Positions 6,001 to 9,000 of a stretch of DNA of 64,000 nucleotides are shown here, in pieces. Where the stretch lies: assembly GCF_055900595.2 (NCBI RefSeq), contig NZ_CM148325.1. One strand, given 5' to 3'. Position numbers: made by a program. Each line of letters starts with the position of its first letter. The first letter of the stretch is position 1.

Positions 6001-9000
6001 CTGTTGCCAAATGGCATAAAGGCTGGATCCCACCGGTTACTACTGCCGCAAGACTTCCTTCAGTGTCCCGGGTAAGCCGCTGGTTGATGCCCTGGAGAAT
6101 AATCAGGGGTGAAGAAAATTATGCTTTCCGATTTATTAGTCTGATGTGTGAAAAAGAACCGGAGTTGAAAATAGCGCAGCAACTGGTACTCGAGTTCTAC
6201 CGTATTCTGAAAACCTAAAATAAATCACAGCTAAGCAGCTGGTTCACTCGGGTCCACGAAAGCGGCTCAGCAGAACTTCGGTGCGTAGCTGCGGGGATGG
6301 AAGCTGATGCTGCGGCTATATGTGAGGCAATCAGCAGTCGCTGGAGTACTGGTGTTGTCGAAGGTCATGTAAATCGCCTGAAGGTGCTGATACGCCAGAT
6401 GTATGGTCGAGCCGGACTTGAACTACTTAGGCGGAGGGTAATGAGTCCACTGGCATGAAAATCTTCACCTAGGTTGAGGAAGAGCCACTTTTGCACTGTT
6501 CGTGACAGTATGGCCTTTATGTACTCACTTTGTTACCGGTAGCTGAATCATCACTACCGTGCTGCAAATGGTGGTGAACAGCATCAATTGTGGAATGAAT
6601 GTTGCCGAAGCGACCAATGCGCCTCGTTTCCACCATCAGTGGTTGCCGGACGAGCTGCGTGTTGAAAAGGGTTTAGTCCGGATACGCTCAAGCTGCTGGA
6701 AGCAAAAGGTCAGAAAGTGGCGCTGAATGAGGCGATGGGCAGCACGCAAAGCATTATGGTTGGGTCGGATGGTGAGTTGTACGGCGCATCCGACTCGCGC
6801 TTGGTGGATGATTTAACGGCGGGGTATTAATTGACATCCCCCGGCGCAGTGTGCCGGGGGATAATGGTTTTATGCGGTCAATAATCGTCCGGGATTATCG
6901 ATACAGAGTTTTTTGAGGATCGTTTTATCGACGCCGCGCTCCGCCAGATAGGCCAGAAAAACATCTGGAACAAATCCCCAGCCATTACCGCCATTTTTAG
7001 CCCACATTTGTTTAAGGAAGACATCGTGGCTGAGAACAAGCTGATCGGCGTATCCCAACTCAATGAGATGAGCGACGGCATCGGCAGTCTCCTGCACCCC
7101 TGGCGCTATTCCCTCTTTCGGGAAGGTAATGTCTAGGCCAATCATGTCGAATTCCAGCCAGACACCCTTATCAAGCATTTTCCGCTGATACGCCACGTCT
7201 TTTCCTGACGGATCCGAGTGTGCGAGAGAGACTTTATTTGGCGAGACGCCCATTTCACCTAACACAATGTCGAGTACTTCATCACCGCGACGAAGCCAGC
7301 CCGGCATGTGAATATTCATCGCCACATGAGGATTGTTAATCTGTGCCAGCGAGGCAGCCCGCAAGCTGTTATGCTCGGCTTCGGTAAATGTCGGTGAGAC
7401 ACCTATTTCACCGATCATTCCGGCACGAATATCCGTATCGCCAATCCCTTGATTCAATTCTTTATCAATCGTTGCCGCCAGTTCATCAACCGTTTTATGA
7501 ATTCTCTGGCTTTCAAATTTTTCCAAGTAGGGACCGGAGGAAGCAACAATATTCAGACCTGTTTTTAATGCGACTTCTCGTAATGCCTGCGCATCTCGTC
7601 CGATAGACTCAGACCCTGTGGCATCAACAATGGTGCGACCACCGAGCGAGATAAAGTTATTAATTTCGAAGATCACATCTTCAATAGGTTTGCGGTCCAT
7701 ATTATCAGCGCAGCAATAAGGTGATCTTACCCAGCAATAGTGGACACGCGGCTAAGTGAGTAAACTCTCAGTCAGAGGTGACTCACATGACAAAAACAGT
7801 ATCAACCAGTAAAAAACCCCGTAAACAGCATTCGCCTGAATTTCGCAGTGAAGCCCTGAAGCTTGCTGAACGCATCGGTGTTACTGCCGCAGCCCGTGAA
7901 CTCAGCCTGTATGAATCACAGCTCTACAACTGGCGCAGTAAACAGCAAAATCAGCAGACGTCTTCTGAACGTGAACTGGAGATGTCTACCGAGATTGCAC
8001 GTCTCAAACGCCAGCTGGCAGAACGGGATGAAGAGCTGGCTATCCTCCAAAAGGCCGCGACATACTTCGCGAAGCGCCTGAAATGAAGTATGTCTTTATT
8101 GAAAAACATCAGGCTGAGTTCAGCATCAAAGCAATGTGCCGCGTGCTCCGGGTGGCCCGCAGCGGCTGGTATACGTGGTGTCAGCGGCGGACAAGGATAA
8201 GCACGCGTCAGCAGTTCCGCCAACACTGCGACAGCGTTGTCCTCGCGGCTTTTACCCGGTCAAAACAGCGTTACGGTGCCCCACGCCTGACGGATGAACT
8301 GCGTGCTCAGGGTTACCCCTTTAACGTAAAAACCGTGGCGGCAAGCCTGCGCCGTCAGGGACTGAGGGCAAAGGCCTCCCGGAAGTTCAGCCCGGTCAGC
8401 TACCGCGCACACGGCCTGCCTGTGTCAGAAAATCTGTTGGAGCAGGATTTTTACGCCAGTGGCCCGAACCAGAAGTGGGCAGGAGACATCACGTACTTAC
8501 GTACAGATGAAGGCTGGCTGTATCTGGCAGTGGTCATTGACCTGTGGTCACGTGCCGTTATTGGCTGGTCAATGTCGCCACGCATGACGGCGCAACTGGC
8601 CTGCGATGCCCTGCAGATGGCGCTGTGGCGGCGTAAGAGGCCCCGGAACGTTATCGTTCACACGGACCGTGGAGGCCAGTACTGTTCAGCAGATTATCAG
8701 GCGCAACTGAAGCGGCATAATCTGCGTGGAAAGCTTCTTTCATTCGCTGAAAGTGGAATGTATCCATGGAGAACACTTTATCAGCCGGGAAATAATGCGG
8801 GCAACGGTGTTTAATTATATCGAATGTGATTACAATCGGTGGCGGCGGCACAGTTGGTGTGGCGGCCTCAGTCCGGAACAATTTGAAAACCAGAATCTCG
8901 CTTAGGCCTGTGTCCATATTACGTGGGTAGGATCACCGCACTCTTGACATAAGAGTGCGGTCCGTGGAAAACGGAGTTGAAAAAATGGTGTCTGAAAGAA

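What the first reader, a model, noticed from the sequence alone, without database searches (positions are those of the whole stretch)
6515..7700. Convergent pseudogene fragments of a gamma-glutamyltranspeptidase paralog and a phosphotriesterase-like gene
The ggt fragment retains about 100 C-terminal codons with high similarity to E. coli Ggt but has a premature TGA (about 6544-6546) and a 1-bp frameshift (GGTTTA versus expected GGTTTT near 6680). The opposite-strand Php-like ORF lacks the N-terminal metal-binding HxH segment and ends 21 bp from IS3. Both appear to be remnants of an accessory metabolic cluster rather than the chromosomal ggt and php loci, which map elsewhere in K-12.
Basis: partly seen in the sequence, partly recalled or inferred. 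Interest (0 to 1): 0.35.

Follow-up and report, generated by a model that had tools for sequence, protein, structure and literature searches.

The report
Decayed ggt and phosphotriesterase gene remnants
These are two dead gene stubs in an E. coli genomic island: the tail of a four-gene sugar-kinase/esterase operon cut off by an IS3 insertion-deletion, and the last 98 codons of the neighbouring ggt gene carried along when that operon moved. Both are ordinary and already annotated as pseudogenes.

Summary
Window 6537-6830 (+) is the last about 98 codons of a gamma-glutamyltransferase gene, 93% identical in DNA to K-12 ggt. It carries a TGA at 6544-6546 and a 1-base frameshift. Window 6870-7721 (-) is residues 62-344 of a 344-aa phosphotriesterase-family protein. 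It lacks the N-terminal HxH metal ligands and is cut exactly at the left end of IS3 (7722).

- The PTE gene is not a php paralog. It is the last gene of the rikA(STM3547)-STM3548-STM3549-STM3550 operon, which is intact in some E. coli.
- The ggt piece is not a dedicated accessory paralog. In Citrobacter and Salmonella the operon lies in the chromosome, convergent with the single core ggt. The 4.5-kb E. coli segment matches that arrangement in one collinear block ending inside ggt, so the stub is a hitchhiking 3' end.
- The frameshift is a lost A in an A-run (6665-6668), not GGTTTA versus GGTTTT.

Compared with strain TUM14668, the window lacks 13,021 bp, replaced by a defective IS3. This junction occurs in 491 of 5426 complete E. 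coli genomes. RefSeq (NCBI's PGAP annotation pipeline) already calls both pseudogenes.

Verdict: real, ordinary, already known, low interest.

The parts
4743..6508 (+). Degenerate ISL3-family element. This is the boundary at which ggt was truncated.
   Evidence: - Terminal inverted repeats at 4743-4785 and 6466-6508, 43 nt and 77% complementary.
- Transposase ORFs hit PF01610.
- PGAP annotates 'ISL3 family transposase, internal stop'.
- The flanking 8-mers differ (cttcacat versus tatggcct), so there is no target-site duplication (read).
6509..6530 (.). 22 bp of unassigned junction sequence between the ISL3 end and the ggt homology.
   Evidence: No similarity to K-12 or S. bongori ggt at the corresponding positions.
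6531..6830 (+). ggt' pseudogene: the 3' end of a gamma-glutamyltransferase gene, equivalent to K-12 codons about 482-580 plus the stop.
   Evidence: - 93% DNA identity to K-12 ggt nt 1449-1743.
- 82-84% identity to Citrobacter and Salmonella ggt.
- PGAP annotates 'gamma-glutamyltransferase, frameshifted, incomplete, missing N-terminus'.
- A 12-bp deletion between GGTAGC repeats is inferred at 6531-6542.
6544..6546 (+). Premature stop TGA, replacing CGG (Arg486).
   Evidence: Codon-by-codon comparison with K-12 ggt.
6665..6668 (+). Frameshift site: a run of four A where K-12 ggt has five.
   Evidence: This is the only gap in the alignment. Restoring one A restores the Ggt reading frame to the natural stop.
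6836..6862 (.). GC-rich hairpin in the 39-bp spacer between the two convergent stop codons. It looks like a terminator.
   Evidence: - 12-bp stem with 9 GC pairs.
- MFE -25.3 kcal/mol, z = -3.4.
- Citrobacter and Salmonella have an analogous hairpin between PTE and ggt.
6870..7721 (-). PTE' pseudogene: residues 62-344 of the 344-aa STM3550/Pmi1525-type phosphotriesterase-family protein. The 5' end is removed at the IS3 boundary.
   Evidence: - PF02126 hit with E=1.9e-42.
- 99% identical to the full-length E. coli protein P0002.
- Collinear with an intact copy up to 7721.
- PGAP annotates 'phosphotriesterase-related protein, incomplete, missing N-terminus'.
7722..8935 (+). Defective IS3 copy of 1214 bp, marking the site of a 13-kb deletion.
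   Evidence: - Left end matched exactly at 7722.
- 96% aligned to K-12 IS3A, with a single 44-bp gap between CTGCGTGGAA direct repeats inside orfB.
- The flanking triplets differ (AGG versus CCG), so there is no target-site duplication (read).
8936..10393 (.). Sequence that resumes after the deletion: the region upstream of yoeA (K-12 yoeH/yoeG homologues), then IS4 and cob fragments, leading to cobU.
   Evidence: - Window 8935-11000 matches TUM14668 L091 10702-12767 at 98.6%.
- It matches K-12 yoeH/yoeG.
- PGAP features are listed.

Best explanation
The region holds two non-functional relics left by two successive IS-associated rearrangements.

Step 1, inferred. In an Escherichia-lineage genome, the operon rikA-glutamine amidotransferase-DMT transporter-PTE sat between yhhY and ggt, convergent with ggt. 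Citrobacter and Salmonella still have this arrangement. A 4.5-kb piece was excised and placed in the island next to cobU. It ran from about 95 bp upstream of rikA to codon ~482 of ggt. It is now bounded by an IS66 remnant on one side and an ISL3 element on the other. The 294-bp ggt tail came along as a passenger. It was never a functional gene in this location. It has since acquired a stop codon, a -1 frameshift and probably a 12-bp slippage deletion.

Step 2, shown by comparison. In the window's lineage, an IS3 copy is associated with loss of 13,021 bp. The lost stretch runs from PTE codon 61 back through DMT, the amidotransferase, rikA, an IS66 remnant, a yaiO/yaiP-type cluster, ibrA/ibrB-like genes and the TonB-dependent receptor gene yoeA. 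What remains of PTE lacks strand 1 of the barrel and the HxH metal ligands, so it cannot form the binuclear metal site. The 276-aa ORF starts at an internal Met69 by accident.

Neither fragment is expected to do anything. The hairpin between them is the old terminator shared by the convergent genes.
For: Identity of the fragments:
- Full-length 344-aa orthologs exist in E. coli (99% identity), S. bongori (90%) and S. enterica (88%).

The operon in E. coli:
- The operon region is present at >=80% coverage in about 1920 of 5426 E. coli genomes. In some copies individual genes are themselves disrupted.
- In TUM14668 all four genes are intact, and the same ggt' and ISL3 follow them.

The chromosomal arrangement in relatives:
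- In S. bongori the order is yhhX...rikA-GATase-DMT-PTE...ggt-yhhA-ugpQCEAB.
- In Citrobacter and S. diarizonae a full-length ggt (tblastn 1-580) lies about 50 bp from the PTE stop, convergent with it.
- The E. coli segment L009 4999-9469 aligns in one HSP to Citrobacter 2893-7374.
- K-12 yhhX, ryhB and yhhY flank the other side of the operon in those genomes.

Origin of ggt':
- It is 93% identical to E. coli ggt but only 82-84% to Salmonella and Citrobacter ggt.
- It differs from K-12 at 12 synonymous and 8 non-synonymous codons.
- No E. coli genome (0 of 5426) has a longer ggt next to PTE.

The deletion:
- Its edges map to TUM14668 record positions 1965680-1978700.
- IS3 has no target-site duplication and carries a 44-bp internal deletion.
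- The junction is shared by 491 genomes.

Literature:
- The operon is described, and RikA characterised, in PMC13432705.
Against: - The order of events and the mechanism of step 1 are inferred from end-points only. The mechanism could be IS-mediated capture, another form of illegitimate recombination, or transfer from a relative. No genome with the operon at yhhY-ggt in Escherichia was found.
- The genome-contig scan listed no Escherichia. It also failed to list S. bongori and S. enterica LT2-type genomes, which carry the gene, so that absence is uninformative.
- Whether IS3 caused the 13-kb deletion cannot be told. The alternatives are an adjacent deletion by IS3 and recombination between two IS3 copies.
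- Lack of expression or function of the truncated ORF was not tested.
Confidence: 0.85

Rival explanations
1. Both fragments are remnants of one accessory metabolic cluster that included its own dedicated Ggt paralog working together with the phosphotriesterase.
For: - The two genes are adjacent and convergent, and they always travel together in E. coli.
- ggt' differs by 7% from the resident ggt.
Against: - In every relative examined, the ggt next to the operon is the chromosomal gene flanked by yhhA and ugpQCEAB. It is not an extra copy.
- The published description of the conserved cluster lists four genes and never mentions ggt.
- No E. coli genome has more than the same 294-bp stub.
Confidence: 0.05
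2. The stop codon and the frameshift are sequencing or assembly errors, and the genes are intact.
For: The frameshift lies in a homopolymer run (A4 versus A5), a typical site for sequencing errors.
Against: - The same sequence is present in 2482 independently assembled complete genomes.
- L003 and L009 carry the same-length fragment at 99.3% identity with no gaps.
- Both genes are also physically truncated, by ISL3 and IS3. No base correction would restore them.
Confidence: 0.01
3. The truncated PTE ORF (276 aa from Met69) is expressed, for example by read-out from IS3, and retains or has gained some function.
For: - The ORF is open for 276 codons and 99% identical to the intact protein.
- The junction is retained in 491 genomes.
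Against: - It lacks the HxH ligands and the first strand of the barrel. By established knowledge of the amidohydrolase superfamily, these are required for the binuclear metal centre.
- No promoter-like site lies upstream of the ORF between 7700 and 7800 on the minus strand.
- The near-identity is explained by the recency of the deletion. Sharing among 491 genomes is explained by clonal descent.
Confidence: 0.04
4. The segment was acquired recently by horizontal transfer from Salmonella or Citrobacter.
For: The gene order is identical to that of those genera.
Against: - DNA identity to those genera is only 75-77% over the operon and 82-84% over ggt'. ggt' is 93% identical to E. coli ggt.
- This points to an Escherichia-lineage source.
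Confidence: 0.03

Closest known systems
STM3550 of the rikA (STM3547)-STM3548-STM3549-STM3550 cluster of Salmonella Typhimurium (PMC13432705). The structural ortholog is Pmi1525 of Proteus mirabilis (PDB 3RHG/4QSF).
   Same: - PF02126 family.
- 85-90% amino-acid identity to the Salmonella proteins and E=9e-174 to Pmi1525.
- Same four-gene context in the intact E. coli copies.
   Different: - Here only residues 62-344 remain and the three upstream genes are deleted.
- The locus is an island next to cobU rather than the yhhY-ggt slot.
- The physiological substrate of the family is unknown. Pmi1525 has a reported metal-stimulated esterase activity (cited in PMC5341072).
E. coli K-12 ggt (b3447), glutathione hydrolase proenzyme
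   Same: 93% DNA identity over the last 295 bp, with the same C-terminal sequence ...DDLTAGY.
   Different: - Only about 98 of 580 codons are present.
- It lacks everything upstream of codon ~482. From general knowledge of E. coli GGT, that includes the autoprocessing site and the Thr391 nucleophile.
- It carries a stop, a frameshift and a probable 12-bp deletion.
E. coli Php (YhfV), phosphotriesterase homology protein (PDB 1BF6)
   Same: Same Pfam family and amidohydrolase fold.
   Different: - Only a distant relative: E=1.4e-24 to 1BF6, against 9e-174 to Pmi1525.
- It scores 104 bits against the Php equivalog model, whose cut-off is 486.
- It is not a php paralog of recent origin.
IS-mediated adjacent deletion, or IS-IS recombination, as a route to gene loss in E. 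coli islands
   Same: A single IS3 sits exactly at the junction of two sequences that are 13 kb apart in a related strain, without a target-site duplication.
   Different: The IS3 copy is itself disabled by a 44-bp deletion, so the junction is now fixed.

Membership tests
Phosphotriesterase family (Pfam PF02126, amidohydrolase superfamily) | Significant match to the family profile | tested here: met
   146 bits, E=1.9e-42, against a cut-off of 22.4. The match covers profile positions 37-297 of 298.
Phosphotriesterase family (Pfam PF02126, amidohydrolase superfamily) | Complete barrel with the N-terminal HxH metal ligands, as needed for a functional member | tested here: not met
   The fragment starts at residue 62 of 344. 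The conserved H23-E-H25 of all full-length orthologs is absent.
Php (YhfV) orthologs, NCBIfam NF007373 equivalog | Score above the curated equivalog cut-off | tested here: not met
   104 bits for the fragment and 108 bits for the full-length P0002, against a cut-off of 486.
STM3550/Pmi1525 orthologs (last gene of the rikA cluster) | High identity to STM3550-type proteins, and the conserved rikA-GATase-DMT-PTE context in intact copies of the same locus | tested here: met
   - 99% identity to the intact E. coli protein.
- 86-90% to Salmonella and 73% to Proteus.
- The conserved context is shown.
- The cluster is described in PMC13432705.
Gamma-glutamyltranspeptidase (Pfam PF01019) | Significant sequence match | tested here: met
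   33.3 bits against a cut-off of 27 for the 55-aa ORF. 93% DNA identity to K-12 ggt.
Gamma-glutamyltranspeptidase (Pfam PF01019) | Full-length proenzyme with an intact reading frame, including the large subunit and the small-subunit N-terminal nucleophile | tested here: not met
   Only K-12 codons ~482-580 are present. The fragment has a TGA at codon 486 and a -1 frameshift at codons ~526-527. No longer copy exists in 5426 genomes.
   In S. bongori, S. diarizonae and three Citrobacter genomes the adjacent ggt is the one flanked by yhhA and ugpQCEAB.
IS3 (insertion sequence) | Terminal inverted repeats, the full element of about 1258 bp, and a 3-bp target-site duplication | tested here: inconclusive
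   - Both ends are present.
- The length is 1214 bp because of a 44-bp internal deletion.
- The flanks are AGG and CCG, so there is no duplication.
- It is an IS3 copy, but defective, and not a simple insertion.

The most novel reading that the evidence does not exclude
The 294-bp ggt stub is a molecular fossil of a relocation. It shows that the E. coli copy of the rikA-STM3550 operon was lifted out of its ancestral core-chromosome slot (yhhY|ggt, as in Citrobacter and Salmonella) in an Escherichia-lineage genome. It then became cargo of the CP4-44-type island beside cobU. This is a documented case of a core-genome operon converted into mobile-island cargo. It also gives an internal clock, because the stub has diverged 7% from the resident ggt.
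Probability: 0.6. Interest if true: 0.2.

Novelty: already known. Interest (0 to 1): 0.1.

Why it matters
It matters little.
- Both fragments are already flagged as pseudogenes in RefSeq annotation, and the parent operon has been described.
- The added value is a corrected annotation. The PTE is an STM3550/Pmi1525 ortholog, not php-like in the narrow sense. The ggt stub is a passenger piece of a core gene, not an accessory paralog.
- The work also gives a clean reconstruction of a 13-kb IS3-associated deletion. That deletion removes the rikA operon, an ibrAB-like pair and the yoeA receptor in about 9% of complete E. coli genomes.
- This could be useful as a lineage marker.
- It is also relevant to anyone studying the still-unknown substrate of the rikA cluster, because strains of this type are natural nulls.

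Tried and rejected
1. A protein search with the repaired 97-aa Ggt tail, meant to find a donor lineage. It returned only short fragments, the best 93% identical over the full query. None matched the fragment's private substitutions over the full query. Uninformative.
2. A scan of genome contigs for PTE relatives, meant to find an Escherichia species with the operon at ggt. It listed no Escherichia, but it also omitted S. bongori and S. enterica LT2-type genomes, which carry the gene. The absence therefore cannot be used.
3. A search for ISL3 inverted repeats with the default seed found nothing. A shorter seed found them.
4. I considered that the K-12 homology break at 8935 meant a K-12-specific rearrangement. 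Rejected: K-12 continues collinear with TUM14668 into yoeA, so the break is the window's own deletion edge.
5. I considered recent transfer from Salmonella or Citrobacter. Rejected on identity: 75-77% over the operon.
6. I considered function of the truncated ORF. Rejected as unlikely, because the HxH ligands are missing and no promoter-like site lies upstream.
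Full report
**What is in the sequence**

The window is E. coli chromosome, in the variable island immediately upstream of cobU (cobU at 10394-10939). Its order matches strain M160133 at 100% identity over the finding. On the plus strand, 6537-6830 aligns to the last 295 bp of K-12 ggt (nt 1449-1743). There are 273/295 identities and a single 1-base gap. On the minus strand, a 276-aa ORF (6870-7700) matches Pfam PF02126 (phosphotriesterase family) at E=1.9e-42, over profile positions 37-297 of 298. RefSeq's PGAP annotation of the identical sequence already lists two pseudogenes there. 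One is 'gamma-glutamyltransferase, frameshifted; incomplete; missing N-terminus'. The other is 'phosphotriesterase-related protein, incomplete; missing N-terminus'. They lie between an ISL3 pseudogene and an IS3 pseudogene.

- The TGA at 6544-6546 is real and replaces CGG (Arg486).
- A frameshift is real. The Ggt frame moves from that of 6559 to that of 6717.
K-12 also reads GGGTTTAG at 6669-6676. The lesion is the loss of one A from an A5 run, now A4 at 6665-6668.
- GTTACCGGTAGC at 6531-6542 matches K-12's GTT ACC GGT AGC. This implies a 12-bp in-frame deletion between two GGTAGC repeats.
- Upstream of 6531 there is no ggt similarity. 22 unassigned bases separate the fragment from the right inverted repeat of the ISL3 element. 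That element has arms at 4743-4785 and 6466-6508 and no target-site duplication.
- For the PTE, alignment with ten full-length orthologs shows the homology runs through the 21 bp between the ORF's ATG and IS3. The fragment is residues 62-344 of 344. The ATG is an internal Met69. The missing part contains the conserved H23-E-H25.
- IS3 begins at 7722.

**What the PTE gene really is**

Full-length 344-aa proteins exist in E. coli (99% identical, a cluster of 2862 sequences), in S. bongori (90%) and in S. enterica (88%). Their context is a four-gene cluster:
- a DeoR-PfkB kinase,
- a GATase1-like protein,
- a YdcZ-type DMT transporter,
- the PTE.

RefSeq names the first gene rikA in E. coli TUM14668, where all four genes are intact. 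This is the STM3547-STM3550 cluster of S. Typhimurium. RikA was recently shown to have ribose kinase activity. The other three genes are uncharacterised, and the authors suggest a pathway for an unknown substrate (PMC13432705).

The closest solved structure is Pmi1525 of Proteus mirabilis (3RHG/4QSF, E=9e-174). A metal-stimulated esterase activity has been reported for it (cited in PMC5341072). The protein is only a distant relative of E. coli Php: 104 bits against an equivalog cut-off of 486. 'Php-like' is therefore true only at family level.

**What the ggt piece really is**

In S. bongori the cluster lies in the chromosome between yhhX and ggt-yhhA-ugpQCEAB. In three Citrobacter genomes and in S. 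enterica subsp. diarizonae, a full-length ggt (tblastn residues 1-580) lies convergent with the PTE gene. Only about 50 bp and a hairpin separate the two stops. The E. coli segment (L009 4999-9469) aligns to these chromosomes as one collinear 4.5-kb HSP. It runs from about 95 bp upstream of rikA, through PTE and the spacer, into the last 291 bp of ggt. K-12 yhhX, ryhB and yhhY flank the other side of the cluster in those genomes.

So the ancestral slot is yhhY|ggt. In K-12 that slot is occupied by yhhZ-yrhA-IS1-yrhD-yrhB. The ggt stub is the passenger 3' end of a core ggt, not a member of the accessory cluster. A chimeric query tested this directly. It joined K-12 ggt upstream sequence to ggt' and the PTE 3' end. 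No E. coli genome (0 of 5426) has a longer ggt next to the PTE. The truncation therefore predates the spread of this segment in E. coli.

**Source of the segment**

- ggt' is 93% identical to E. coli ggt but only 82-84% identical to Salmonella and Citrobacter ggt.
- The operon is 75-77% identical to those genera.
- Against K-12, ggt' has 12 synonymous and 8 non-synonymous codon differences. That is too many synonymous changes for within-E. coli variation, and too many non-synonymous ones for a gene under selection. I read this as divergence in a related Escherichia-lineage ggt followed by neutral decay. With 98 codons this is only an inference.
- No extant donor was identified (searches were uninformative).

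**The second event**

Collinearity with intact copies stops exactly at 7721. Beyond IS3, window 8935-11000 matches TUM14668 starting 213 bp upstream of the start of the intact TonB-dependent receptor gene yoeA. In TUM14668 coordinates the window lacks 1965680-1978700, which is 13,021 bp. The missing stretch contains:
- PTE codons 1-61,
- the DMT transporter gene,
- the amidotransferase gene,
- rikA,
- an IS66 remnant,
- yaiO,
- an LbetaH-domain gene,
- yaiP,
- a PIG-L deacetylase gene,
- a PAPS-reductase/IbrB-like gene pair,
- yoeA.

A single IS3 sits in its place, without a target-site duplication (AGG versus CCG). This is the signature of an IS-associated deletion or IS-IS recombination rather than a simple insertion. 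The IS3 copy is itself dead. A 44-bp deletion between CTGCGTGGAA repeats truncates orfB.

K-12 lacks both fragments at this locus. It keeps yoeA (split by IS2) and only a short remnant of the sequence upstream of rikA.

**Distribution among 5426 complete E. coli genomes**

| Feature | Genomes |
|---|---|
| PTE 3' part present | 2616 |
| ISL3-ggt'-PTE arrangement | 2482 |
| Upstream operon present at >=80% coverage | about 1920 |
| Exact PTE::IS3 junction | 491 |

Other truncations also occur, for example IS1 insertions. Even 'complete' operons often carry lesions. The DMT gene has an internal stop in strain 1802D011. rikA and the DMT gene are split in L003/L004. The cluster is thus decaying in E. 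coli generally.

**Mechanism and verdict**

Neither fragment is expected to function. ggt' has no start, no large subunit and no catalytic N-terminus of the small subunit. PTE' lacks two metal ligands and the first barrel strand, and no promoter-like site lies upstream of it. The hairpin at 6836-6862 (-25.3 kcal/mol, z = -3.4) is the old terminator shared by the convergent genes.

The finding is real but ordinary, and already annotated. The only mildly new point is that the ggt stub records the relocation of a core-chromosome operon into an island.

Noticed in passing
window 7722-8935 (deletion site about 8724-8733): The IS3 copy is 1214 bp. A 44-bp deletion between CTGCGTGGAA direct repeats removes part of orfB (InsF) relative to K-12 IS3A. 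The element is probably immobile.
   Followed up: yes
window 7721/8936 versus L009/L091 (NZ_CP135646.1 1965680-1978700): The window lacks 13,021 bp that are present in strain TUM14668. The missing stretch holds the rikA operon, an IS66 remnant, a yaiO/LbetaH/yaiP/PIG-L cluster, a PAPS-reductase/IbrB-like pair and an intact TonB-dependent receptor gene (yoeA, a split pseudogene in K-12).
   Followed up: yes
window 4743-6508: ISL3-family element with 43-nt imperfect terminal repeats, an internal stop in the transposase and no 8-bp target-site duplication. Its right end is the point where ggt was cut. 22 unassigned bases (6509-6530) lie between them.
   Followed up: partly
L003/L004 (GCA_021459445.1; SRR12495170) and L090 (NZ_CP149549.1): In E. 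coli strains with a full-length PTE gene, other genes of the rikA operon are often broken. The DMT transporter gene has an internal stop or is split into 202 + 116 aa. rikA is split into 147 + 241 aa. The whole cluster seems to be decaying in E. coli.
   Followed up: partly
window 9902-10260: Fragments of an IS4-family transposase gene and of a cobalamin-biosynthesis gene lie just upstream of cobU, according to the PGAP annotation of the identical sequence. These are further debris at the island/core boundary.
   Followed up: no
window 2930-4555: An inovirus Gp2-family (YagK/YfjJ-type) gene and two adjacent zinc-ribbon (DUF7828/Zn_ribbon_11) genes lie next to the ISL3 element. They are conserved alongside the ggt'-PTE segment in all strains examined, so they are typical CP4-type island backbone.
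   Followed up: no
L008 (K-12 3581138-3585043) versus L010-L013: The yhhY-ggt interval is a variable slot. Citrobacter and Salmonella carry the rikA operon there. K-12 carries yhhZ-yrhA-IS1-yrhD-yrhB. S. bongori has an extra ~1.7 kb between PTE and ggt, with two or three small ORFs called in two of the three contigs.
   Followed up: partly
L002 15472-15662 (K-12, between yoeA fragment 2 and yeeP): K-12 retains about 200 bp that are 89% identical to the IS66-remnant sequence lying just upstream of rikA in other strains. This suggests K-12 once carried the same segment, or a related one, and lost it.
   Followed up: no
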